From the NCBI GenBank assembly GCA_026705765.1, contig JAPPAB010000099.1, positions 14,833 to 78,832 on the forward strand: DNA of 64,000 bases, given 5' to 3'. Positions within the stretch are counted from its first letter, which is position 1, and each line of letters starts with the position of its first letter. The notes under the pieces were generated by a model that was not told where the DNA came from, did no database searches, and was given only the letters and a program-made list of their open reading frames with translations. Of the stretch, positions 5,339-19,406 are shown piece by piece. Made by a program: the position numbers and the translations under genes. The DNA is from Gemmatimonadota bacterium. GTDB lineage: Bacteria; Latescibacterota; UBA2968.

Positions 5339-6040
5339 CTATTTTGCGAGGGTGGTGAGTAGTTCGCGTGCGGCATAGCGTCCACTGGGATAATTGCCGT
5401 TCAGGAGTTCGATGAATCCCGGTACACTCGTTTCCGGCAAGGGGCGGTCACTGATGTCTTCAAAGGGGAATGCTTCTCGGTGCATTTGCGTTCGCATGTC
5501 GCCGGGATCTACCCAGTAGATGCGCCAGTCGGGGCGTTCTGCTGCGAGTACGTTTGAGAGTTGTTCAAGCGCGGCTTTCGAAGAGCCGTATCCGCCCCAG
5601 CCGGGGTACGGCTCGCGAGCAGCGTCGCTGGTGATGTTGATTACGCGGGCGCCTGATTTTAAGGTGTGTTGGAGTGCCTGGAGCACACCCAGGGGCGCGA
5701 TTGTGTTGGCGCGATAGACGTCTGCCAATATATCGAGGGGGTAGTCGAGCAGTTCGGGCTGGGGACTCGGTCCCAATATGCCCGCGTTGTTGATTACGGC
5801 GTCGAGGTCCCCTATTTCTTTTGCTGCGTGCGCCAGTGCTTTCCGGTGTTGGGGGTCTGTTACGTCTCCGGCGATGGCGGTGACTTCGGTCCATTTGGCC
5901 AGTTCTTTGCGCGCGTGTTCGAGTGCGTCTGCGCCTCTTGCGTTGATGATCAGTCGCCAGTTTTGCTGTGCGAGTTCGCGCGCGAGAGCGAGACCCAGTC
6001 CGCGAGATGCGCCGGTGATGAGAGCTGTTTGTGTGGACAT
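5339..6040 (-). CDS. SDR family NAD(P)-dependent oxidoreductase
   Basis: N-terminal TGASRGLGLALAREL Rossmann motif; 233 aa. Confidence 0.75.
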   Translation of the reverse strand: MSTQTALITGASRGLGLALARELAQQNWRLIINARGADALEHARKELAKWTEVTAIAGDVTDPQHRKALAHAAKEIGDLDAVINNAGILGPSPQPELLDYPLDILADVYRANTIAPLGVLQALQHTLKSGARVINITSDAAREPYPGWGGYGSSKAALEQLSNVLAAERPDWRIYWVDPGDMRTQMHREAFPFEDISDRPLPETSVPGFIELLNGNYPSGRYAARELLTTLAK

Positions 6041-6168: not shown

Positions 6169-7230
6169 CTATCTGAGCAGCGCACCACAATCCCAATCCT
6201 TATACGCTTTCATCGCATTCCGAACCGAGAATGCACGCTTCCATAAGATCGGGCAGAAGACGCACGATAGCACAGATAGACGATAATCGTATTCGAATTG
6301 GTCTCGGCTGTAATTTTCGATGCCACCAGCTATGAGCTTTCTATAATAGAAATTCATAAGGGGCGTTTCGAGTGCTTCTCGTTCGGATGTTCCGTGGATC
6401 AGCATGTAGGCGAGGTCGTAAGCACCAAGTCCTCGCTTGTAGGTTTCCCAATCGAAGAGAATGATCTGGTCCTTTGATGGATCCTTCGGGTAAAACAGGT
6501 TCCACAGATGCGCGTCGCCGTGTAGCATTGTGATATTTTTCCCGTTTGCGACACGCGCCAGGAATATATCGGGATATCCGTGAATCACGCGTTCCATTAT
6601 CTCGATGTGAGCGGAATCGAGGTCGTCGCCCAGTTCTCGTGCCAGTGGCTTCAGGGCTTCTTCAAAGCTGGCGCAGCTATCGCGTATGTCTTTTTCGGAT
6701 ATTGCCTGGGCCATGCGGAGTGGACCACCGGCCTGCATCATGAACGGCCACTCGTCCAGACGTGGATCATTCCACCATTGAATGTGATATTTGAGCAGTT
6801 CTTCAATTACGGCTTTGTGAAGTTGTTCGGTGGCCTCCTTTGGCCCATCTTTATGTGTCACCGACAGGTCTGGCATGAGATAGTGACAGTTTTTCTCATT
6901 GTGATCGAATCCACAGTCGAAAACGGGACAGACAGATGCGTCCGGCGTTTTGGGCGCGAGGTCATCGTAAAATGTCCATTCGACGACTCCGCCTCCGAAC
7001 CATCCCTTTCGATAGACCTTTAACACAATCGCATTTGGAATATCACCCACGTAGTCGTCGCTGAATGTCAGCGAGAGCCTGTCCCATTCCGCGCACGATG
7101 ATCCGAACGAGTCCGTTTTTTCTACGGATGTGACCGAACCCGATTTCAGGAATCCGTTACGACTAAATCGATCCGTTAGGAGCGCAGGCGTCAGTTGTTC
7201 GGCATGGGTGATGGGTTCCGATAATTTCAT
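6169..7230 (-). CDS. Aminoglycoside phosphotransferase (APH)-family kinase-like protein
   Basis: HGDAHLWNLFY Brenner motif and DWETYKRGLGAYDLAY. Confidence 0.6.
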   Translation of the reverse strand: MKLSEPITHAEQLTPALLTDRFSRNGFLKSGSVTSVEKTDSFGSSCAEWDRLSLTFSDDYVGDIPNAIVLKVYRKGWFGGGVVEWTFYDDLAPKTPDASVCPVFDCGFDHNEKNCHYLMPDLSVTHKDGPKEATEQLHKAVIEELLKYHIQWWNDPRLDEWPFMMQAGGPLRMAQAISEKDIRDSCASFEEALKPLARELGDDLDSAHIEIMERVIHGYPDIFLARVANGKNITMLHGDAHLWNLFYPKDPSKDQIILFDWETYKRGLGAYDLAYMLIHGTSEREALETPLMNFYYRKLIAGGIENYSRDQFEYDYRLSVLSCVFCPILWKRAFSVRNAMKAYKDWDCGALLR

Positions 7231-7392
7231 TAGCTCTTTTCTTGGGAATAAGGACGTATTGAAGGAAGAGAGATTATTTTGTATTCATTAAGGGATCATG
7301 CTATAATGCGTTCCTGAAGGCTGGGACAAAATCGTTGTTATAAAAAATAAAGCCAGAGTTTTGCGTGGCGTCAAGGATGAAAGGAGAAAATT

Positions 7393-9024
7393 ATGTCGGG
7401 TATAGATGTGGGTCAAATTGGATGGAAGGCTGAGAGTAAGACGGGTGTTGTGGCTGCAGGTGGTGCAGGTGCTGTGGCTGCGGGGATTGAGATTCTGGAT
7501 AGGGGTGGCAATGCGGCCGATGCAGCCGCTGCGACTATTTTTGCGCTGAATGTTACGGATCACGGTGCGTGTTCGATTGGCGGGGAGGTTCCGCTTCTTA
7601 TTTTTGATGCTGGGACTTCGGAGGTGAAGGCTTTGAGCGGACAGGGGCGGGCACCGCGTTCTCAGGAGGCGATTGACTGGTATATGGAGCATGGTATTCC
7701 GGGGGATGGCGATATGAAGATGGCACCCGTGCCTTCGGTTGTGGATTTGTGTATTACGACGCTTAAGCGATACGGTACGATGTCGTTTGAAGAAATTATC
7801 GCTCCTGTGCTCGCTTTGCTCGATGCGGGGGAGGATGACTGGCATCCCAATCTTGCGAGGACGTTGCGAAAACTCGTTGAGGAGGAGCATCTTACGTCGG
7901 GGAGTCGGGAGGAGAAGTTGCAAGCTGCCGCGGATCGCTTTTACGGGCGGAATAAGTATCGCAATGATATTGCGGAGGAGCTTGAGGCTTTTTATGTCGC
8001 AAAGGGGGGGTTTTTGCGTCGGGAAGATCTGGCGACGCATGTTACGACGATTGAAGATCCGGTTACGGTTTCTTATCGGGGATATACGGTTTGCAAGTGC
8101 GGGCCGTGGACGCAGGGTCCGTATTTGTGTCAGGCACTGCGCTTGCTCGAGAAGTTCGATGTCAAGGCTATGGGCCATCTTTCGGCTGATTATGTTCACG
8201 TTGTTACCGAGGCGATCAAGCTGGCGATGGCGGATCGCGATGCGTATTATGCCGATCCCGATTTTTCAGGTGTGCCTCTGGGGGGATTGCTCTCTGATGC
8301 TTACACGGATTTGCGCGTGCCGCTTATCGATATGCAAGCGGCTTCTCTGGAGGCGCGTCCGGGGGATCCTTATCTGATGCAGCCAGTTGTGGATGGTGGT
8401 GTGTTCCGTCCGGGTACGGGGGGGACGACGACTTGTGTGGTGGCGGACTGCTGGGGCAATGTTGTCGCGGCGACACCGAGTGCCAATGTTCACCGGCCTA
8501 CGATTGATGGGGGGAGTACGGGGGTTACTTATGGGAATCGCCTGCGGAGTCTCAATACGACGGCGGGTCATCCGAATTGTATCCAGCCGGGGAAGCGTCC
8601 GCGCATTACGCTGACGCCTACGCTGGTGTTGAAAGATGGGCGACCGATTCTGGGTATTAGTGTTGCGGGTGGCGATTTGCAGGATCAGACGACGTTGAAT
8701 TTGTTGCTGGATTTTGTGGAGTTTGGGATTATGCCGGAGGAGGCTGTTACTGCGCCCCGTTTTGCGACGGCGCATCACAACGATTCTTTTGATCCCAATC
8801 CCATCCGCGAGCAGACGTTCAAACAGGCCGGGTCGCTGACGCTGAATGATGCGATAGATCGGGATGTGCAGGATGATCTCGCCAGACGAGGACATCAGGT
8901 CGAGGCGAAAGCATCTAATATTGCGACGCCTGTTATGGTTTATGTGGATCGAGAAGAGGGCAGGTATTACGCGGCAGGCGATCCCAAAGCGGGGCGTCAC
9001 GCCGCGGGGGTGGAAGATGGGTGA
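7393..9024 (+). CDS. ggt: Gamma-glutamyltransferase
   Basis: GGT fold; putative Thr nucleophile in GGTTTCVVAD; 543 aa. Confidence 0.75.
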   Translation: MSGIDVGQIGWKAESKTGVVAAGGAGAVAAGIEILDRGGNAADAAAATIFALNVTDHGACSIGGEVPLLIFDAGTSEVKALSGQGRAPRSQEAIDWYMEHGIPGDGDMKMAPVPSVVDLCITTLKRYGTMSFEEIIAPVLALLDAGEDDWHPNLARTLRKLVEEEHLTSGSREEKLQAAADRFYGRNKYRNDIAEELEAFYVAKGGFLRREDLATHVTTIEDPVTVSYRGYTVCKCGPWTQGPYLCQALRLLEKFDVKAMGHLSADYVHVVTEAIKLAMADRDAYYADPDFSGVPLGGLLSDAYTDLRVPLIDMQAASLEARPGDPYLMQPVVDGGVFRPGTGGTTTCVVADCWGNVVAATPSANVHRPTIDGGSTGVTYGNRLRSLNTTAGHPNCIQPGKRPRITLTPTLVLKDGRPILGISVAGGDLQDQTTLNLLLDFVEFGIMPEEAVTAPRFATAHHNDSFDPNPIREQTFKQAGSLTLNDAIDRDVQDDLARRGHQVEAKASNIATPVMVYVDREEGRYYAAGDPKAGRHAAGVEDG

Positions 9025-13787: not shown

Positions 13788-15104
13788 ATGAAGTCTTTGT
13801 CTGAACTTGAAGAGCGGATGGCTGAGGCGCAGCCGGGTGATGTGATTGGGCTGGCCGACGGCATGTATGATGGTGAGAGGTGCAGGCTCGCGGCAAGGGG
13901 GACCGCAGATCAGCCGATTGTTATTCGGGCGGAGGGTATGGGAAAGGCGGTTATAAAGGCGCCGTTGTTGCTGGTGGGAGATTATATCAGTCTTGTGGGG
14001 TTGCACTTTGTGGAAAAGGGGAGTGTGGAGATTCGGGGGCGGGGTTGTCGCATAAGTCGCTGTGTGATGACGGATGTGCAGGTTGGCAAGTGGATACGGG
14101 TGAGGGCAGAGAGTCGGGAAGTTGAGATTGATCGCTGCCGGTTTGAGAATAAGACCAATAATCTCGAGGAGACGCGCGGCTGCCAGTTGATGCAGATTTA
14201 CGTTCGCAATCAGGGCGAGAGGCACCTTGTTCACCACAATTATTTTGTCGATGTTCCGGATGGTAAGGAGAGCAATGGGTACGAGACGCTTCAGCTTATT
14301 ACGGAGGGGAATCCGTACGATCCAGAGCCGGGTGATTGTGAGACGGTTGTTGAGTACAATCTTTTTGTGCGTTGTAGTGGGGAGGCGGAGATTATTTCTG
14401 TGAAGTCCAATGGCAATATTCTCCGCAGGAATACGTTTCGCGATTGCCGGGGCGCGCTGGTGCTTCGGCATGGGGATGGCAATGTGGTGTCTGAGAATTT
14501 CTTTTTTGGCGAGGGCGAACGCCGGGCTGGCGGTGTGCGCTTGCAGGGGACGGATCAGGTTGTTGTGAATAATTTGTTCCATTCGCTCAATGCGTTTGGC
14601 GTGGGGATGATGGATGGGGCATCGGATGATCTCTATGTGCGGGTGGAGCGCGCGCTGATTGCGTTTAATACGTTTGTGGGGTGTAGTCCGGCGATGGATG
14701 TGGGGCTAAATCACAGCAGGTATCCCAATGGTACAGTGCCTAAAGATTGTGTGGTTGCGAATAATGCTTTTGTGAGATCCGATGGGACTGTGCGGCTGGT
14801 GCAGGACGATGAGCCAGTGAATTGGCGATGGGAGGGGAATGTGACAGATGGGGATTTGGGTATGCCCGATCGGGATGGGATAAAAACTGGGCGGGTCGAT
14901 GTGGATTATCTGCCCAATGGGGTTGTTGCACCGGGAGAGTCCAGTGGTTTGATTGGCAATGCCGAGGGGCATTATCCAGAGATAACGACGGATATTTTGG
15001 GGCATTCACGGGGCGAACAAAAGACGATTGGTTGCGTTGAGTTCCCGACGGGAACGGAGGACGGCGGTCCCTTAACTGCGGCAGATGTGGGACCAAGGTG
15101 GTAG
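13788..15104 (+). CDS. Right-handed parallel beta-helix polysaccharide lyase (PL6/chondroitinase-B-like)
   Basis: Repeated beta-helix rungs with NNxF/NNLFH motifs; start codon abuts the esterase stop. Confidence 0.5.
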   Translation: MKSLSELEERMAEAQPGDVIGLADGMYDGERCRLAARGTADQPIVIRAEGMGKAVIKAPLLLVGDYISLVGLHFVEKGSVEIRGRGCRISRCVMTDVQVGKWIRVRAESREVEIDRCRFENKTNNLEETRGCQLMQIYVRNQGERHLVHHNYFVDVPDGKESNGYETLQLITEGNPYDPEPGDCETVVEYNLFVRCSGEAEIISVKSNGNILRRNTFRDCRGALVLRHGDGNVVSENFFFGEGERRAGGVRLQGTDQVVVNNLFHSLNAFGVGMMDGASDDLYVRVERALIAFNTFVGCSPAMDVGLNHSRYPNGTVPKDCVVANNAFVRSDGTVRLVQDDEPVNWRWEGNVTDGDLGMPDRDGIKTGRVDVDYLPNGVVAPGESSGLIGNAEGHYPEITTDILGHSRGEQKTIGCVEFPTGTEDGGPLTAADVGPRW

Positions 15105-15106
15105 CA

Positions 15107-15439
15107 TCAATCAATAGAAACAACGAGGTTCAAGTTTTCTTTTCTTAGCGTGTCCTGCAAGGCAAGCTGCACCCAGAAGCTTTCTGGCTCGCCGAGTTGT
15201 CTGGCAATTTTGGCTGCCCTGCTGGGGCTTGGGATTCTTCTTTCTTTTTCTATATCACAAAGGCTTTGAGGGGAGATTCCCAAAAAATCAGCAAACGCTC
15301 GCTGGCTTTTTTCTTCTCCTGTTCGATAGCTGGCCAAGGCATTTCCAAATGTGAGACACCCAAAGTCTCTCTCCAGTTCAGAAGTTCCATATTGTTCTTT
15401 AGTAATCATGTTTATTGATCTCCTTAATTCCCAAATCAT
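15107..15439 (-). CDS. XRE-family helix-turn-helix transcriptional regulator
   Basis: HTH_3-like segment QRAFADFLGISPQSLCDIEKERRIPS. Sits at the edge of the low-GC islet, divergent from repeat copy A. Confidence 0.65.
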   Translation of the reverse strand: MIWELRRSINMITKEQYGTSELERDFGCLTFGNALASYRTGEEKSQRAFADFLGISPQSLCDIEKERRIPSPSRAAKIARQLGEPESFWVQLALQDTLRKENLNLVVSID

Positions 15440-15472
15440 ACGTCAAAATGACGTATGCAGCAAGTTCAACCT

Positions 15473-15527
15473 GCCTTGATATGTTTTGAAATGCGATTGA
15501 CAATATCGCGTTGTTGCTACATTTTTT
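15473..15527 (+). promoter_or_regulatory. Repeat copy A of a promoter/operator-like element (TTGACA 15497-15502, TACATT 15518-15523)
   Basis: gccttgatatgttttgaaatgcgATTGACAAtatcgcgttgttgcTACATT. Nearly identical to copy D and related to copies B and C. Confidence 0.5.
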
Positions 15528-15734
15528 ATCGGATAGTATGGATATAGTGAGAGATAGCGCAATACGATGATGCCCTGCATATCGCTTTGGCTTCGGTTGC
15601 AGAAGTCGATGTGTTGGTTAGCTGGAACTTCAAGCACATCGTACACTTTGACAAAATACGTCTATTCACCGCTGTGAACATTGAACTTGGCTATAAACCA
15701 TTACAGATATACTCTCCGCGTGAGGTGACTAATT

Positions 15735-15911
15735 ATGGAGACGAAAAAGACGTTTGATGCGGTTAAGATTGTGCGTCGGATTCGAGACGCGCACTATGAG
15801 CAACTCAAGGATAGAACGGTAAAAGAGCAATTGGCATTTTACCAAAGCAAGTCTCAGGCATTGCGTAACGACTTAAAAAAGAAATTGCAAGAGCATTATG
15901 ACGACGAATGA
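15735..15911 (+). CDS. Small hypothetical protein (58 aa), paralogue of the 62-aa ORF at 16943
   Basis: SD GAGGTGA 8 nt upstream of the ATG. Shares a VRxxRDxHxxQ core with the 62-aa protein. Below the 60-aa ORF-track cutoff. Confidence 0.5.
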   Translation: METKKTFDAVKIVRRIRDAHYEQLKDRTVKEQLAFYQSKSQALRNDLKKKLQEHYDDE

Positions 15912-16042
15912 TCCCATTGTTTCGGAAGTCCGAAAAGAGATGTGGCATAAATTTGGTCAAAAGGATTAGGCATAATTCAATATAGAAAAGGAGAGGAATC
16001 TCGATCTACTTTGATACCCATATTGTGGTGTGGTTATATGCT

Positions 16043-16090
16043 GGTCAAACCGAAATGCGGTTGACAAAATCGTGTCGTTACTACACTTTT
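16043..16090 (+). promoter_or_regulatory. Repeat copy B of the promoter/operator-like element (TTGACA 16061-16066, TACACT 16082-16087)
   Basis: gaaatgcgGTTGACAAaatcgtgtcgttacTACACTtttt upstream of the UPF0175 gene. Confidence 0.45.
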
Positions 16091-16132
16091 TCTTTCTAAG
16101 CGTAATTCAAATATGGATGAAACGGGGCGCGC

Positions 16133-16393
16133 ATGTTAAAAATTACATTTGAATGTCCAGATGATATTCTGCAGATCCTCAGTGAAACGCCTGAACAATT
16201 CGCCGAACAAGGCCGCATGCTCATCGCCGTCAAACTGTTTGAACTCGGACGTTTGTCATCGGGTCAGGCGGCTCGGTTTGCGGGCATGGAGCACGTTGTA
16301 TTTTTAGATGCCTTAAAATCCTACCAGGTATCTCCTCTCAATCTGACTCCAGAAGAATTGGCAAAGGATATTTCCAATGCTAGGAATCTGTAA
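16133..16393 (+). CDS. UPF0175 family protein (putative antitoxin)
   Basis: 86 aa with GRLSSGQAARFAGMEHVVFLDALKSY, matching the UPF0175 core. Classic partner of DUF3368/PIN-like proteins. Confidence 0.6.
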   Translation: MLKITFECPDDILQILSETPEQFAEQGRMLIAVKLFELGRLSSGQAARFAGMEHVVFLDALKSYQVSPLNLTPEELAKDISNARNL

Positions 16394-16467
16394 TGTCGAT
16401 GCGTTCCACAACCCTATTTCTACTGAATTGACCAACTGGCCTTGTTACATTGGATACGCCTCTTATT

Positions 16468-16956
16468 ATGAAACCAAAGGTATATATCGAAACCACCGTT
16501 ATTAGCTACTTGACAGCCCAACCTTCTCGCGATGTCGTAATTGCGGGACATCAACAGAGTACTCGAGATTGGTGGAAGAACGCAGCTGATCGGTTCGAAC
16601 TCGTAGCTTCACAACTGGTCCTTACCGAAGCCAGTGCTGGCGATCCGGAAGCTGCTCGTGCCCGCCTCGCAGCACTCAACTCACTGACGCTTCTCGACGC
16701 CACAGAGGAAGCCCTTGAATTAGCACAACAATTGGTCAACGCTGGCGTTGTGCCTGCAAAGGCAGCAGAAGACGCCGCTCATATTGCCATTGCAGTTGTC
16801 AACGGTATCGAATATTTGGTAACTTGGAATTATCGGCATATCGCCAATGCGACGATCCGATCACAAATCGAAACTGTATGTCGGAATGCGGGATTTGAAC
16901 CCGCGATCATCTGCACACCTGACGAACTCATGGAGCGTGATCATGACGACGAATGA
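16468..16956 (+). CDS. PIN-like (DUF3368/VapC-like) putative toxin
   Basis: N-terminal VYIETTVISYL, internal LTEASAGD, AAHIAIA, and C-terminal LVTWNYRHIAN resembling the VapC LxTRNxxDF motif. ATG at 16468 preferred over TTG at 16450. Confidence 0.5.
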   Translation: MKPKVYIETTVISYLTAQPSRDVVIAGHQQSTRDWWKNAADRFELVASQLVLTEASAGDPEAARARLAALNSLTLLDATEEALELAQQLVNAGVVPAKAAEDAAHIAIAVVNGIEYLVTWNYRHIANATIRSQIETVCRNAGFEPAIICTPDELMERDHDDE

Positions 16957-17131
16957 TCCCATTGTTTCGGAAGTCCGAGCAGTACGCGACAAACACGCTG
17001 CTCAATTCGGCTACGATCTCAAAGAGATATTCCGCGATATTAAGAAAAAACAAAAATCATCTGGTCGTAAATACGTGCAGTATCCTTCCCGTGCGGCTGT
17101 TGTAACAACTGTCACAACTTCAGACCAGTAG
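16943..17131 (+). CDS. Small hypothetical protein (62 aa), translationally coupled to the PIN-like gene
   Basis: ATGACGACGAATGA start/stop overlap with the upstream gene. Its first 12 codons are duplicated at 15899. Confidence 0.5.
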   Translation: MTTNDPIVSEVRAVRDKHAAQFGYDLKEIFRDIKKKQKSSGRKYVQYPSRAAVVTTVTTSDQ

Positions 17132-17147
17132 CTATAAAGGCAATATC

Positions 17148-17711
17148 ATGACAACGGTTTTTATTGGCGGTTCTCGTAGCATCACACGCTTGAACGACAC
17201 CATCAGGTCCACAGCGGATAACATCACGCGTCAGCATTTTGATATCGTTATCGGAGATGCAAATGGTGCTGATAAGGCTGTACAGAGCTATTTAGCAGAA
17301 AAAGCATATCGGAATGTTATCGTCTATTGTATGGATGATCACTGTCGGAACAACGTGGGAAGTTGGCCAGTAGAACAGATATATGCAGATAATCAGGTAA
17401 GGGACTTTGCATACTACACAACTAAGGATGCAAAGATGGCTCAAGTAGCGTCCTATGGCTTCATGATTTGGGATGGAAAGAGTAAGGGAACTTTGAACAA
17501 TATTCTCAACTTATTGCAGCTACAGAAGAATATCCTGGTTTATTTTTCGCCCGATAAGTCTTGTTATAAGCTCAAATCACTCAACGATCTTGATACACTC
17601 TTAGAAAAATGTAGCAGCGATATGATAGAAAAGTTCGAAAAGGAGTTCTCACTACTGGTCCCAGCGAGTTTAGAAGGTTCGAATTTTGAGATCGCATTTC
17701 CTGAAAGATAG
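17148..17711 (+). CDS. Stand-alone SLOG-domain protein (DprA/Smf- and LOG-like Rossmann fold)
   Basis: FIGGSRSI and VIGDANGADKAV resemble the DprA GSR...sGlA.GiD motif. MIWDGKSKGTLNNI resembles the LOG PGGxGTxxE motif. Local GC is low. Confidence 0.5.
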   Translation: MTTVFIGGSRSITRLNDTIRSTADNITRQHFDIVIGDANGADKAVQSYLAEKAYRNVIVYCMDDHCRNNVGSWPVEQIYADNQVRDFAYYTTKDAKMAQVASYGFMIWDGKSKGTLNNILNLLQLQKNILVYFSPDKSCYKLKSLNDLDTLLEKCSSDMIEKFEKEFSLLVPASLEGSNFEIAFPER

Positions 17712-17746
17712 GAACATGCCTTAATATGTTTTGAGATGTGGTTGAC

Positions 17747-17790
17747 AAAAGCGTACGTGTTAAACATTGACAAGTACGCTTTTTTGTTTT
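17747..17790 (+). terminator. Rho-independent terminator-like hairpin embedded in repeat copy C (TTGACA 17742-17747)
   Basis: AAAAGCGTAC-(17 nt loop containing TTGACAA)-GTACGCTTTT followed by TTGTTTTC. Lies 36 nt after the SLOG gene stop. Confidence 0.5.
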
Positions 17791-18112
17791 CTTTGACTTT
17801 CACAAGGTTATTGTGAAGTGGTCTATTTGCTTGGTTTTCCGATGAAGCAGTGCACAGCGCGTGAGTCCGTCTCGCAGCGGATGTTTTTATGGCATTTCAA
17901 CTGTGCAGGCCATTGTATAGCGCATTACCACAGAAACGATTTGCGCTGTGCCAGCCCCTCGGCGTTTGAGAGCGGCATTTTTTGCCTACTTTTTTTTGCT
18001 GTTGAAAAAAAGTAGGTCGCCGAAGGCATAAAAAGGAAAATATTTAAAAAGCTTTATACGTCGTTACACCACCACAAATGAATTATGCATATCCCTGAAA
18101 TAAGTATCCTCA

Positions 18113-18165
18113 AAAACCGAATTGCGGTTGACAATCTCGCGTTGTTGCTACATTGTTTATTTTTG
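18113..18165 (+). promoter_or_regulatory. Repeat copy D of the promoter/operator-like element (TTGACA 18127-18132, TACATT 18149-18154)
   Basis: gcgGTTGACAATctcgcgttgttgcTACATT. A 27-nt block is almost identical to copy A. Lies about 45 nt upstream of the enolase-superfamily start. Confidence 0.5.
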
Positions 18166-18197
18166 AGGAGTATTCCAATACGAGAAAAGGAAAATAT

Positions 18198-19406
18198 ATG
18201 AAAATTAAATCCGTCGAAGTCGTTCGCGTTGAACGGCCAGATACAAGCCAGGCCTCAACGGGGTCCGGTACGACGCTCGCTGCTTCAACAGGTGCAGCCC
18301 CGAGGACAAAGGGGTATCGAAAGGCGTGGCCCACGCAGATAGAGGTGGCAAATCCGATGTCCAGGTTCCCGCGGTTTAAGGCGCGTCGGCAGCTTTACGG
18401 TGCCAGACAGTGGCCCAGGTTCTCGGTTAAGGTGACCGCTGAAGATGGGACCTGGGGCCTCGGCACGTCGGCGGGACGCCCGGTTGCTATGGTGGTGGAA
18501 GATGCTTTCGCGCATATATTGGAAGGGGAGAGTTGCCTGGCTATTGAAAAGCTGTGGGATATGATGTTTCGCGTGTCCAAATCTTTTGGGACTGTGGGGA
18601 TTGCCTCGTTGGCGATTAGTGCTGTGGATCTGGCGCTGTGGGATCTGGCGGGGAAATTGCAGGGCAAGCCCGTTTATGAACTTCTGGGCGGTCCGGCGCG
18701 CGATCGTTTGTTTGTGTACGCGACGGGTGATGATGTGGATTGGTACAAGGAGTTGGGGTTTCGGGCGTTTAAGTTGCCCTGTCAATACGGTCCGGTTGAT
18801 GGGTTGTGGGGATTGGGAGAGAACGAGAGGCGAATAGCCGAGGTCCGCGAGTTGATCGGCGATGATTGCGATCTCATGCTGGATTGTTATATGGCTTTGG
18901 ATGTGGAATATACCGCGCGTTTGGCCAATCGCCTGCGTCCTTATAATCTGCGGTGGATGGAAGAGTGCCTGATTCCCGAGGATGTTGGGGGGCATATTGA
19001 ACTCAAGAAACGCCTGCCGTGGTTGACGCTTGCCAGTGGCGAGCATTTTTACACGCCGTATCCCTACCAGTTGATGATCGAAAATCGGTGTCTCGATATT
19101 CTCCAGCCCGATATTCAGTGGGTGGGGGGTTTGACTGCTTGTGTCAAAATTTGTAATATGGCTGCCGCTGCGGGGCTGGAGGTTTGTCTGCACGGCGGGG
19201 GACGCGATGCGTACGGTCAGCATTTGAGCTGGGCAATGCCCAATACCCCCTGGTGTGAGTATTTTATCGGTTCTGATCCGGGGGTACCACTTGAAGAAGT
19301 GGCGCAACCCGGCGCGTGCGTGCCGCACAATAGCTATCTGGCGTTTGCGCCGACAGGTCCGGGTTTTGATCTGGGGATTGAAGAGGATTGGTTGGTGCCG
19401 TTTTAA
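18198..19406 (+). CDS. Enolase-superfamily enzyme (mandelate racemase/muconate lactonizing enzyme family)
   Basis: MR/MLE N-terminal capping domain and TIM-barrel ligand region; start MKIKSVEV with SD GAAAAGGAAA. Confidence 0.65.

What the first reader, a model, noticed from the sequence alone, without database searches (positions are those of the whole stretch)
17148..17711. Stand-alone SLOG (DprA/LOG-like) protein with an uncharacterised ~60-aa C-terminal extension and locally low GC
Its motifs (GGSRS and GDANGADKAV; MIWDGKSKGTLNNI) place it in the SLOG superfamily, but it lacks the DprA SAM and winged-helix domains and the full LOG active site. Stand-alone SLOGs are predicted ligand (nucleotide) sensors. 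Linkage to a PIN-like nuclease gene suggests a sensor-effector arrangement split across separate polypeptides.
Basis: inference. Interest (0 to 1): 0.6.

Follow-up and report, generated by a model that had tools for sequence, protein, structure and literature searches.

The report
Orphaned SLOG partner of lost PRTase
This is a real gene for a small nucleotide-binding-fold (SLOG) protein that elsewhere almost always sits right behind a phosphoribosyltransferase gene, an arrangement that resembles known toxin-antitoxin phage-defence pairs; here that partner has been cut out and replaced by an unrelated PIN-like cassette, leaving the SLOG gene on its own.

Summary
The ORF at 17148-17711 (+, 187 aa) is real. 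It has more than 5,000 homologues. An AlphaFold model (pLDDT 89) gives a SLOG Rossmann fold, with YpsA, DprA, ShosA, LOG and the ThsA SLOG domain as top matches. No Pfam, NCBIfam or PADLOC model reaches threshold.

The proposed PIN sensor-effector link is not supported. PIN-like and UPF0175 genes lie near a homologue in one locus each out of 81, both in the same clade.

The true partner is a roughly 197-aa ComF/ShosT/PsyrT-like phosphoribosyltransferase (PRTase). It lies immediately upstream, mostly with a 4-nt ATGA overlap. It is full length in 62 of 81 loci found by searching with the SLOG protein. In the reverse search from the PRTase, 0 of 79 assessable loci lacked the SLOG gene. That asymmetry fits a toxin (PRTase) with an antitoxin (SLOG), as in ShosTA and PsyrTA/RqlHI.

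A close relative at the same chromosomal site (L167) carries UPF0175-PRTase-SLOG. In the window, 16407-17135 (PIN-like gene plus a 62-aa gene) replaces the PRTase ORF and leaves only its last 13 nt. The orphan is intact, keeps all 31 family-conserved residues, and evolves under purifying selection (dN/dS 0.15-0.46).

It is an orphaned member of an unnamed, minimal variant of a known kind of system. Interest is moderate.

The parts
17148..17711 (+). SLOG-fold protein gene (187 aa). It is an orphaned second gene of a PRTase-SLOG two-gene module.
17166..17177 (+). GGSR loop after strand 1 (residues 7-10).
   Evidence: F5, G7, G8, S9 and R10 are invariant in the 44-sequence alignment. The loop follows strand E3-8 in the model.
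17253..17273 (+). GDANGAD motif (residues 36-42). It includes the GxD signature of the YpsA clade (G40, D42).
   Evidence: G36, D37, A38, G40 and D42 are at least 90% conserved in 150 representatives. The GxD/E signature is described in PMC6459960.
17343..17366 (+). CRNNxGxW loop (residues 66-73), a family-specific conserved motif.
   Evidence: R67, N68, N69, G71 and W73 are at least 90% conserved.
17469..17501 (+). WDGxSxGTLNN motif (residues 108-118). It is positionally equivalent to LOG PGGxGTxxE, with Asn118 in place of the catalytic Glu.
   Evidence: W108, D109, S112, G114 and N118 are at least 90% conserved. The motif equivalence is my own inference from alignment of the GT dipeptide.
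17580..17648 (+). Two C-terminal helices (residues 145-167). This is the family-specific structured part of the 'extension'.
   Evidence: Helices H145-152 and H157-167; block pLDDT is 94 for residues 141-160 and 76 for 161-170. L151 and C155 are nearly invariant.
17655..17708 (+). Disordered, variable C-terminal tail (residues 170-187).
   Evidence: pLDDT is below 50 for residues 170-187. The tail is replaced by unrelated sequence in L003-L006.
17136..17151 (+). AAAGGCAATATCATGA. This is the last 13 nt of the lost PRTase gene, including its TGA, overlapping the SLOG ATG. It is also the likely ribosome-binding region.
   Evidence: The block is identical in the window, L001-L006 and L167, and is the 3' end of the PRTase ORF in L002 and L167.
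16407..17135 (+). Replacement segment that occupies the slot of the PRTase ORF. It carries the PIN-like gene (16450-16956) and a 62-aa gene (16943-17131).
   Evidence: Window 16052-16406 matches L167 7025-7379 at 89%. Window 17133-17785 matches L167 7986-8638 at 91%. Between those blocks L167 carries the PRTase gene at 7414-8004.
16133..16393 (+). UPF0175 gene, the left flank shared with the intact UPF0175-PRTase-SLOG locus L167.
   Evidence: Pfam UPF0175 E 3.9e-25. Homology to L167.
15105..18197 (.). Low-GC, hypervariable cassette islet between the chondroitinase-B-like gene (13788-15104) and the MR_MLE gene (18198-19406).
   Evidence: GC is 0.433 against 0.54-0.56 in the flanking genes. Cassette content differs among the window, L001, L003-L005 and L167 while the flanks are 91-98% identical.
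15468..15549 (+). Copy 1 of a promoter-like repeat (core TGCGGTTGACAATATCGCGTTGTTGCTACA) at a cassette border.
16047..16113 (+). Copy 2 of the repeat, 20 nt upstream of UPF0175. It is the likely promoter of the UPF0175/PIN-like/62-aa/SLOG gene string.
   Evidence: No terminator-like site was found between 16113 and 17711 on the + strand.
17713..17753 (+). Diverged copy 3 of the repeat, directly after the SLOG stop codon.
   Evidence: Repeat family D3.
18114..18180 (+). Copy 4 of the repeat, directly upstream of the MR_MLE gene.

Best explanation
What it is. The gene encodes a minimal, single-domain SLOG protein. It is YpsA/DprA-like, has a GxD pocket signature, and lacks the LOG catalytic Glu. 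It belongs to a large, unnamed family.

Normal context of the family. The family's normal state is a translationally coupled two-gene operon. A roughly 197-aa type-I phosphoribosyltransferase (ComF/ShosT/PsyrT-like, with an intact PRPP loop LLFDDLYRSGAT) comes first, and the SLOG gene follows with an ATGA overlap.

Likely mechanism (inferred). ShosTA and PsyrTA/RqlHI are the two characterised PRTase plus DprA-like SLOG pairs. By analogy with them, and from the gene-loss asymmetry seen here, the PRTase is the toxic, PRPP-dependent effector and the SLOG protein is its neutraliser (antitoxin).

What happened in this window (shown by sequence comparison). The lineage once carried UPF0175-PRTase-SLOG at this site. 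The PRTase ORF was then replaced by a PIN-like plus 62-aa cassette. Only the last 13 nt of the PRTase gene remain, and the SLOG gene is now an orphan. It is probably read through from the upstream cassette promoter.

State of the orphan. It is intact and under purifying selection, so it probably still binds its ligand or partner.

Shown versus inferred. Shown: the fold, the conserved PRTase partnership, the loss asymmetry, the replacement junctions and the selective constraint. Inferred: toxin and antitoxin roles, and the mode of neutralisation. For the latter I favour binding or reversal of the PRTase's phosphoribosylated product or target at the conserved SLOG pocket. A ShosA-like nucleic-acid-binding role is the alternative.

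For: Conserved partner. A same-strand ORF of about 197 aa lies immediately upstream in 70 of 81 loci, and 58 copies show the 4-nt overlap. By HMM the partner is full length in 62 loci, partial in 11, absent in 8, with 1 locus at a contig edge.

Identity of the partner. PADLOC matches the PsyrT PRTase domain at E 7e-21 to 6e-15 and ShosT at 2e-9 to 2e-5. Pfam Pribosyltran and PRTase_3 hits fall just below threshold. Database sources name the protein ComFC, ComF family or amidophosphoribosyltransferase. The AF2 model has pLDDT 93. Its Foldseek hits are OPRT, PurF, H. pylori ComF (E 5e-5) and ShosT (E 1e-4). D159, D160, S164, G165 and T167 of the PRPP loop are invariant.

Reciprocal test. Of 80 PRTase-seeded metagenome loci, 70 have a full SLOG gene downstream, 9 have a SLOG gene cut by the contig end, and 1 has no room. 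None of the 79 assessable loci lacks it. Fisher p is 1.1e-6 against 19/80 SLOG loci without an intact PRTase, and 0.0026 when the Latescibacterota clade is counted once.

PRTase remnants next to intact SLOG genes. Seen in L004-L006, L010, L021, L059, L075 and L077.

Replacement junctions in the window against L167.

No PRTase-like ORF occurs anywhere in the 64-kb window.

Constraint. dN/dS is 0.15-0.46 for the orphans and 0.10-0.28 for paired copies, against 0.04-0.09 for the neighbouring MR_MLE gene. The window copy keeps all 31 residues that are >=85% conserved.

Functional analogy. The RqlH PRTase domain is required for RqlH toxicity, and the DprA-like RqlI binds it (PMC4670107). ShosT is a PRPP-binding toxin neutralised by the DprA-like ShosA (PMC11961720 and PMC12961424). 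A PRTase-coupled branch of the YpsA family has been noted computationally (PMC6459960).
Against: No experiment exists for this family, so toxicity of this PRTase and neutralisation by this SLOG protein are analogies.

The SLOG protein does not reach ShosA or PsyrA HMM thresholds. The window protein gives no hit, and 10 and 4 of 150 representatives give weak hits. It also lacks the SAM domain of ShosA.

The mode of neutralisation differs even between the two characterised relatives: direct binding in RqlHI and indirect action through DNA and RecA in ShosTA. It cannot be transferred with confidence.

The loss asymmetry has an ascertainment caveat. The PRTase-seeded sample kept the 80 best full-length matches, and many of its contigs are short.

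Neighbourhoods of the pair are not enriched in defence genes, and the family is nearly absent from viral contigs. A phage-defence role is therefore not shown.

A PRTase partner elsewhere in the source genome cannot be excluded from a 64-kb window.
Confidence: 0.7

Rival explanations
1. The protein is a stand-alone SLOG ligand sensor that works with the neighbouring PIN-like nuclease (and UPF0175) as a sensor-effector system split over separate polypeptides.
Against: PIN-like and UPF0175 homologues accompany the SLOG gene in only 1 locus each out of 81, both in the same clade. The syntenic L001 has neither. L167 shows a PRTase, not a PIN, in this slot. The PIN-like gene comes with its own overlapping small partner gene, and a paralogous PIN-like plus small-gene pair occurs in L003. 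It therefore looks like a self-contained cassette.
Confidence: 0.05
2. The orphan is retained because it has an active function of its own. Either it protects against PRTase toxins encoded elsewhere in the genome or brought in by mobile elements (an anti-addiction or immunity role), or it serves a PRTase partner in trans.
For: Six related genomes keep an intact orphan ORF. dN/dS is 0.15-0.46, no higher than for paired copies in the same clade (0.28 to 0.33). All conserved pocket residues are kept. The ribosome-binding stub is preserved at every junction. A minority of RqlI-only strains also exists in the PsyrTA/RqlHI family (1.2%; PMC4670107).
Against: No PRTase of this family occurs in the 64-kb window, and the rest of the genome is not available. 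The divergences are small (dS 0.09-0.33), so the dN/dS estimates are noisy. The window copy has lost the family's usual net positive charge: core charge is -0.4, against a family median pI of 9.2.
Confidence: 0.2
3. The orphan is a functionless relic of a degraded toxin-antitoxin module that has not yet accumulated disabling mutations.
For: The toxin gene is gone. The C-terminal tail has been replaced in L003-L006. L006 carries R67Q at a position that is 99% conserved, and L001 carries N39D. The window and L003 copies have lost net positive charge. The islet is in constant flux.
Against: The reading frame is intact in all six orphan genomes. dN/dS is clearly below 1 and similar to that of paired copies. 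All 31 conserved residues are retained in the window copy.
Confidence: 0.15
4. It is a housekeeping LOG-type nucleotide phosphoribohydrolase, or a DprA-type transformation protein.
Against: There is no LOG Pfam hit, and the PGGxGTxxE Glu is an invariant Asn here. The DprA Pfam hit is E 0.18 and there is no SAM or winged-helix domain. The gene lies in a low-GC variable islet and the family is patchily distributed across phyla. The conserved partner is a PRTase, not competence or cytokinin genes.
Confidence: 0.03

Closest known systems
ShosTA (ShosT PRTase toxin with ShosA DprA-like antitoxin; type IV toxin-antitoxin and anti-phage system of E. coli)
   Different: The window protein gives no ShosA HMM hit. 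It has 187 aa against roughly 310-320 aa for ShosA and lacks the SAM domain. The partner is about 197 aa with a small N-terminal beta subdomain; the N-terminal pyrophosphatase-fold domain described for ShosT is not evident in it, and the solved ShosT chains are about 390-420 residues. YpsA-type GxD and CRNN motifs are present. In the window the PRTase gene is absent.
PsyrTA / RqlHI (RecQ-like helicase-PRTase toxin with DprA-like RqlI/PsyrA)
   Same: The partner PRTase is most similar by sequence to the C-terminal PRTase domain of PsyrT (E 7e-21). That domain is required for RqlH toxicity and is the part bound by RqlI (PMC4670107). One family member (P0149) carries a C-terminal region matching the PsyrA C-terminus (E 8e-10). 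Antitoxin-only genomes also occur in that family (1.2%).
   Different: The partner here has no helicase domain. The SLOG protein is half the size of PsyrA and does not hit the PsyrA HMM. In RqlHI, toxin-only genomes are common (55%), whereas no PRTase of this family was found without its SLOG gene.
YpsA clade of the SLOG superfamily, in particular its PRTase-coupled branch noted by Burroughs/Aravind
   Different: The YpsA Pfam model (PF06908) is hit, sub-threshold, by only 5 of 150 representatives, and DprA by 55 of 150. Sequence models therefore do not place the family in YpsA proper. I could not check whether this is the same branch, because the 2015 paper is not held.
ThsA SLOG domain (Thoeris type I sensor of 3'cADPR)
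   Different: The window protein has no fused SIR2 or other effector. No TIR (ThsB-like) gene is a conserved neighbour. The conserved partner is a PRTase.
ComFC plus DprA of natural transformation
   Same: Both pair a ComF-type PRTase-fold protein with a DprA-type SLOG protein. H. pylori ComF is a top structural match of the partner (E 5e-5).
   Different: The partner lacks the ComF N-terminal zinc-finger cysteines: no conserved Cys appears in the partner consensus. The SLOG protein lacks the DprA SAM and winged-helix domains. The genes overlap as a mobile, low-GC pair and are not part of competence loci.

Membership tests
SLOG superfamily (SMF/DprA-LOG Rossmannoid fold) | Rossmann-like parallel beta-sheet fold that matches several solved SLOG members. 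| tested here: met
SLOG superfamily | Glycine-rich loop after strand 1, and conserved G-x-(T/S)-type loop motifs lining the pocket. | tested here: met
   GGSR (7-10), GDAxGxD (36-42) and WDGxSxGT (108-115) are invariant or at least 90% conserved.
DprA (PF02481, DNA_processg_A) | Score above the Pfam gathering threshold. | tested here: not met
   E 0.18 and 11.4 bits against a cut-off of 29.6. The best E among 150 representatives is 0.0011.
DprA | N-terminal SAM domain, with or without a C-terminal winged-helix (DML1) domain, flanking the Rossmann fold. | tested here: not met
   The protein is 187 aa, strand 1 starts at residue 3, and only two short helices and a disordered tail follow the fold.
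LOG (cytokinin riboside 5'-monophosphate phosphoribohydrolase) | PGGxGTxxE motif with the catalytic Glu, and a Pfam Lysine_decarbox match. | tested here: not met
   No such Pfam hit at E<=1 for the window protein, and the family is not among the top families for 150 representatives. The aligned position is an invariant Asn118 (the motif alignment is my inference).
YpsA family (PF06908) | Pfam model match. | tested here: not met
   No hit for the window protein. 5 of 150 representatives hit, best E 0.044.
YpsA clade | Conserved GxD/E substrate-binding signature. | tested here: met
   G40 and D42 are invariant. The signature is described in PMC6459960.
ShosA antitoxin (PADLOC PDLC03961) | HMM match to ShosA. 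| tested here: not met
   No hit for the window protein at E<=1. 10 of 150 representatives give weak hits, best E 2.9e-4.
ShosTA-type system | Adjacent PRTase toxin gene in the same operon. | tested here: not met
   No PRTase-like ORF occurs in the window. For the family as a whole the feature is met: 62 of 81 full-length partners, and 70 of 70 assessable loci in the reciprocal search.
ShosTA-type system | PRTase is toxic, the SLOG protein neutralises it, and the pair protects against phage. | not testable with these tools
   This needs expression and phage-challenge experiments. Only the gene-loss asymmetry supports it indirectly.
PsyrTA/RqlHI | Toxin combines a RecQ-like helicase with a C-terminal PRTase domain; the antitoxin matches PsyrA. 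| tested here: not met
   The partner is 197 aa and matches only positions 537-685 of the 689-position PsyrT model. The window SLOG protein has no PsyrA hit.
Thoeris ThsA-type SLOG sensor | SLOG domain fused to or partnered with an effector (SIR2, TM, Macro), plus a TIR signal generator. | tested here: not met
   The protein is single-domain. No TIR or SIR2 cluster appears among conserved neighbours. A single locus, L083, has a TIR gene nearby.
Type I phosphoribosyltransferase (for the family's partner gene) | PRTase fold and a PRPP-binding loop (hydrophobic x4, then D-D-x3-S/T-G-x-T). | tested here: met
   AF2 pLDDT 93. Foldseek matches OPRT, PurF, ComF, ShosT, APRT and HGPRT. LLFDDLYRSGAT has D159, D160, S164, G165 and T167 invariant. 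Pfam PF00156 is just below threshold for four members and is assigned to several others in the database.

The most novel reading that the evidence does not exclude
The unnamed PRTase plus mini-SLOG pair is a third, minimal branch of the PRTase-toxin systems alongside ShosTA and PsyrTA. It has thousands of members and no Pfam, NCBIfam or PADLOC model. In this reading the SLOG protein does not act through DNA and RecA. It uses its conserved YpsA-type pocket to bind or hydrolyse the phosphoribosylated product of the toxin, which would be LOG-like chemistry reversing a PRTase. Orphan copies such as this one would persist as stand-alone immunity genes against incoming PRTase toxins. A still bolder version is that the SLOG protein was captured by the PIN-like toxin cassette that replaced the PRTase at exactly the same slot.
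Probability: 0.15. Interest if true: 0.6.

Novelty: new variant of a known kind. Interest (0 to 1): 0.42.

Why it matters
If the inference holds, several thousand 'hypothetical protein' genes across many bacterial phyla, together with their ComF-annotated neighbours, form a compact PRTase/SLOG toxin-antitoxin family that current defence-system and domain libraries miss.

Both proteins are single-domain and about 190 aa. This would be the simplest available system for two questions left open for ShosTA and RqlHI: what a PRTase toxin actually phosphoribosylates, and how a SLOG protein counteracts it.

The window also gives a nucleotide-resolved example of a toxin gene swapped for a different toxin cassette inside a chromosomal cassette islet, with the former antitoxin left behind under selection. 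That bears on how orphan antitoxins arise.

For this genome's annotation the practical result is narrower. The gene should be described as an orphan SLOG partner of a lost PRTase, not as a sensor for the PIN-like gene.

Tried and rejected
- Sequence libraries gave no family assignment for the SLOG protein. Pfam, NCBIfam and PADLOC gave nothing significant. PDB sequence searches found nothing, with a single sequence or with a 44-sequence profile.
- The afdb50 fold library was not available.
- The defining SLOG paper (Burroughs et al. 2015, PMC4678834) is not held. I could not check whether its PRTase-coupled YpsA branch is this family.
- A viral-contig scan found only one short, partial match. 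A phage origin is not supported.
- I tested whether the pair sits in defence islands by scanning 141 nearest neighbours against Pfam. The result was heterogeneous (MFS, ECF sigma factors, SAICAR synthase and others; Fic and GIY-YIG twice each). There is no enrichment.
- I considered that orphaning relaxed selection or removed a DNA-binding surface. The window copy has pI 5.4 against a family median of 9.2, and core charge -0.4 against +14.7 in paired L002. However, the paired copy at the same site (L167) has only +6.6, and paired-copy dN/dS (0.28 to 0.33) overlaps the orphan values. Conserved basic positions are also retained, 12 of 14. The charge loss is therefore specific to the window/L003 sub-lineage and is not evidence of decay.
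- I looked for PRTase-SLOG fusion proteins among the long family members and found none. The fusions are to NADAR, DUF4326, DUF488-N3a, Abi_alpha and HEPN-AbiU2.
- Weak PADLOC hits to type IV Cas5 (E 0.035) were treated as chance.
- The sigma-70 and terminator scans were no better than shuffled sequence and were used only to note the absence of a terminator inside the gene string.
Full report
**1. The observation**

The ORF at 17148-17711 on the + strand exists and encodes 187 aa. It is not a chance ORF. A database search returns 5,062 homologues at E<=1e-3, the best at 1.7e-103. All are unnamed or 'hypothetical' and none has a precomputed Pfam domain. A profile search of 1.8 billion cluster representatives finds 2,375 clusters.

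Sequence libraries do not name the protein:
- Pfam gives only sub-threshold YAcAr (E 0.1) and DprA (E 0.18) hits.
- NCBIfam gives nothing.
- PADLOC gives nothing meaningful.
- PDB sequences give nothing, even with a profile.

The local GC is low. The ORF is 0.411 GC, the 15105-18197 islet is 0.433, and the window is 0.518.

**2. Fold**

An AlphaFold2 model built on 44 homologues is confident (pLDDT 89.1, pTM 0.85). It shows a Rossmann-like alternation of strands and helices, then a beta-hairpin, then two short helices (145-167). Residues 170-187 are disordered.

The '60-aa C-terminal extension' shrinks on inspection. It is a roughly 25-aa family-conserved helical pair plus an 18-aa variable disordered tail. 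In L003-L006 the tail is replaced by unrelated sequence.

Conserved family residues are GGSR, GDAxGxD, CRNNxGxW, K93-D94 and WDGxSxGTxxN. The GDAxGxD motif contains the GxD signature of the YpsA clade (PMC6459960). The position equivalent to the catalytic Glu of the LOG motif PGGxGTxxE is an invariant Asn. That equivalence is my inference from the motif alignment.

**3. The real partner**

I fetched 81 genome loci that encode homologues. They span Latescibacterota, Desulfobacterota, Nitrospirota, Planctomycetota, Acidobacteriota, Chloroflexota and Proteobacteria. I then clustered all neighbouring ORFs.

One cluster dominates. It is an ORF of about 197 aa immediately upstream on the same strand, present in 70 loci. 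In 58 copies its stop codon overlaps the SLOG start by 4 nt. With an HMM of this partner, 62 loci have a full-length copy, 11 a partial or frameshifted one, 8 none, and 1 is at a contig edge.

The partner is a type-I phosphoribosyltransferase:
- Its consensus carries an intact PRPP loop, LLFDDLYRSGAT.
- PADLOC matches the PRTase domain of PsyrT (E 7e-21 to 6e-15) and ShosT (2e-9 to 2e-5).
- Pfam Pribosyltran and ComF-like PRTase_3 hits fall just below threshold.
- Database sources call it ComFC, ComF family or amidophosphoribosyltransferase.
- Its AF2 model (pLDDT 93) matches OPRT, PurF, H. pylori ComF and ShosT.

No other gene is conserved next to the pair. The next-nearest neighbours are heterogeneous. 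The pair has lower GC than its flanks in 71 of 75 loci, with a median difference of -6.6 points. This is the signature of a small, self-contained, horizontally moving module.

**4. Which gene is dispensable**

The SLOG-seeded sample cannot reveal PRTase-only loci. I therefore ran the reciprocal search with the PRTase alignment against metagenome contigs.

Of 80 loci, 70 have a full SLOG gene directly downstream. Nine have a SLOG gene cut off by the contig end, and one has no room. None of the 79 assessable loci lacks it. In the SLOG-seeded sample, 19 of 80 loci lack an intact PRTase. Fisher p is 1.1e-6, or 0.0026 if the Latescibacterota clade counts once and only clear absences or remnants are used.

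Short PRTase remnants sit next to intact SLOG genes in several unrelated lineages: L010, L021, L059, L075, L077 and L004-L006.

So the PRTase is never found without the SLOG gene, while the SLOG gene is sometimes found without the PRTase. That is the pattern expected if the PRTase is the harmful component and the SLOG protein protects against it. One caveat applies: the reciprocal sample kept the best 80 full-length matches.

**5. What happened in this window**

The window has no PRTase-like ORF anywhere in its 64 kb.

A close relative, L167, shares 84% SLOG identity and the same downstream MR_MLE gene. It carries UPF0175 (7100-7366), PRTase (7414-8004) and SLOG (8001-8564). The DNA homology between the window and L167 runs as follows:
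- Window 16052-16406 matches L167 7025-7379 at 89%. This block covers the promoter-like repeat and UPF0175, and runs about 14 nt past the UPF0175 stop.
- Window 17133-17785 matches L167 7986-8638 at 91%.
- The shared right-hand sequence begins at AAAGGCAATATCATGA (17136-17151), which is the last 13 nt of the PRTase ORF overlapping the SLOG ATG.

Between those two blocks L167 has the PRTase gene. The window instead has 729 bp (16407-17135) carrying the PIN-like gene and an overlapping 62-aa gene.

Other relatives lost the PRTase differently. L004-L006 keep about 70 nt of its 3' end (81% identical in translation to the L002 partner). L001 has unrelated sequence up to the same AAAGGCAATATC stub. 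L003 shares the window's 62-aa-gene junction.

PIN-like and UPF0175 relatives occur near a SLOG homologue in only one locus each out of 81, both in this clade. The sensor-effector reading is not supported.

**6. State of the orphan**

All six orphan copies have intact reading frames. Pairwise dN/dS values are:
- 0.15-0.46 among the orphans;
- 0.33 between the window and the paired L167 copy, and 0.28 between the two paired copies L002 and L167;
- 0.10-0.25 among paired copies in other phyla;
- 0.04-0.09 for the adjacent MR_MLE gene and 0.15-0.18 for the chondroitinase-B-like gene.

The window copy keeps all 31 residues that are >=85% conserved in 150 representatives, and 12 of 14 conserved basic positions.

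Its net charge is unusual. The pI is 5.4 against a family median of 9.2, and the core charge is -0.4. However, the paired L167 copy is only +6.6, and the drop is confined to the window/L003 sub-lineage. I do not read it as decay.

The gene follows the 62-aa gene after 16 nt with no terminator-like site between them. It can be read through from the repeat element upstream of UPF0175. That is an inference.

**7. Mechanism**

Established knowledge covers two PRTase plus DprA-like SLOG pairs:
- In RqlHI (PsyrTA), the PRTase domain and its PRPP pocket are required for genotoxicity, and RqlI binds that domain (PMC4670107).
- In ShosTA, ShosT binds PRPP and disturbs purine metabolism and DNA replication. 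ShosA neutralises it without binding it, through ssDNA binding and RecA. ShosA has an unstable C-terminal tail (PMC11961720 and PMC12961424).
- Both pairs protect against phages (bioRxiv 10.1101/2022.05.11.491447).

By analogy, and from the loss asymmetry, I assign the PRTase as the toxin or effector and the SLOG protein as the antitoxin.

How this mini-SLOG neutralises its partner is not shown. Two groups of observations point to ligand or product binding, or N-glycosidic chemistry:
- The pocket residues are strictly conserved.
- Family members occur fused to NADAR (E 2e-23), DUF4326 and DUF488-N3a. SLOG fusions to NADAR and DUF4326 are read in the literature as ribosyl- and ADP-ribose-processing contexts (PMC9503650).

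Three observations point to ShosA-like nucleic-acid binding:
- The family is generally basic (median pI 9.2).
- 55 of 150 representatives give weak DprA hits.
- ShosA is the best Foldseek match.

Rare fusions to Abi_alpha and HEPN-AbiU2 show that the domain can also serve as a regulatory module. I favour pocket-mediated neutralisation, with low confidence.

**8. Comparison and novelty**

The family works like ShosTA and PsyrTA but is not a member of either:
- It has no ShosA or PsyrA HMM hit.
- It has no SAM domain, and its partner has no helicase domain.
- The N-terminal pyrophosphatase-fold domain described for ShosT is not evident in the 197-aa partner.

A PRTase-coupled branch of the YpsA family has been mentioned computationally (PMC6459960). 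I could not verify that this is the same branch. I found no experimental work on this family.

I class it as a new, minimal variant of a known kind of system. The window's copy is an orphan left by a toxin-cassette swap.

**9. Verdict**

- Best explanation: an orphaned antitoxin-like SLOG partner of a lost PRTase gene, inside a hypervariable cassette islet. Confidence is 0.7 for this anatomy and history, and lower for the biochemical mode.
- Interest is moderate (0.42). The window gene itself is a leftover. The family it exposes is large, unannotated and experimentally tractable, and the replacement junctions are unusually clean.

Noticed in passing
window 15468-15549, 16047-16113, 17713-17753, 18114-18180; also L003 (1526, 5064, 6682), L004 (3639, 5559, 6694), L005 (5559, 6696), L006 (5865, 6633), L167 (about 301, 7025, 8675): A promoter-like repeat of about 30-80 nt (core TGCGGTTGACAATATCGCGTTGTTGCTACA, always on the + strand) heads each cassette of the islet and also lies directly upstream of the conserved MR_MLE gene. 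In the 64-kb window it occurs only in this islet, and it is absent from the 75 non-Latescibacterota loci. It may be both the cassette promoter and the homology used for cassette exchange.
   Followed up: partly
window 15895-15933 and 16940-16978: A 39-nt direct repeat (97% identical) spans the last codons of the upstream gene (...DDE*) and the first 12 codons of the 62-aa gene. One copy follows the 58-aa gene and the other follows the PIN-like gene. L003 has the arrangement PIN-paralogue / 58-aa gene / 62-aa gene / SLOG without the intervening 1,045 bp. This looks like a recombination joint between two cassette arrangements.
   Followed up: partly
window 16450-16956 with 16943-17131; 15587-15757 with 15735-15911; L003 5191-5652 with 5633-5806: There are two paralogous 'PIN-like gene plus overlapping 58- or 62-aa gene' cassettes. 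One is truncated in the window and full length in L003. The PIN assignment is weak (PF13470, E 0.044) and the small proteins match no family. This may be an undescribed toxin-antitoxin pair.
   Followed up: partly
proteins P0171, P0154, P0238, P0204, P0201, P0149 (family representatives); L085/L086 for P0171: Members of the same SLOG family occur fused to NADAR (E 1.8e-23, next to an IS21 IstB gene), DUF4326, DUF488-N3a, Abi_alpha (E 2e-14) and HEPN-AbiU2 (weak). One carries a C-terminal region matching the PsyrA C-terminus (E 8e-10).
   Followed up: partly
L083 4502-7113: In one metagenome-assembled genome the PRTase-SLOG pair is followed by a 211-aa gene and a CAP12-PCTIR_TIR gene, with a group II intron reverse transcriptase 3 kb upstream. 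This may be a defence-island context or an extended system.
   Followed up: no
L003-L006, SLOG residues about 160-196: Four orphan copies share a different, longer C-terminal tail (...MREMFKLRNLRNRKHVIKGDPEDLVHITWDKAVNIDLP) in place of the family-typical ...KFEKEFSL tail kept by the window, L001, L002 and L167. The tail was therefore replaced in that sub-lineage.
   Followed up: no
L167 3500-6940: A 1,146-aa gene with no Pfam hit lies upstream of the intact UPF0175-PRTase-SLOG locus. Its N-terminus shows a GHKL/sacsin-like ATPase motif (...NAHDAG...GRFGTGF...), identified by eye. DUF433 genes lie further upstream. The islet in that relative is larger and richer in toxin-antitoxin or defence-like genes.
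   Followed up: no
window 17786-18087: About 300 bp between the SLOG downstream region and the MR_MLE promoter repeat has no counterpart in L167. It contains only a 65-aa ORF (17818-18015) and is possibly a remnant of another cassette.
   Followed up: no
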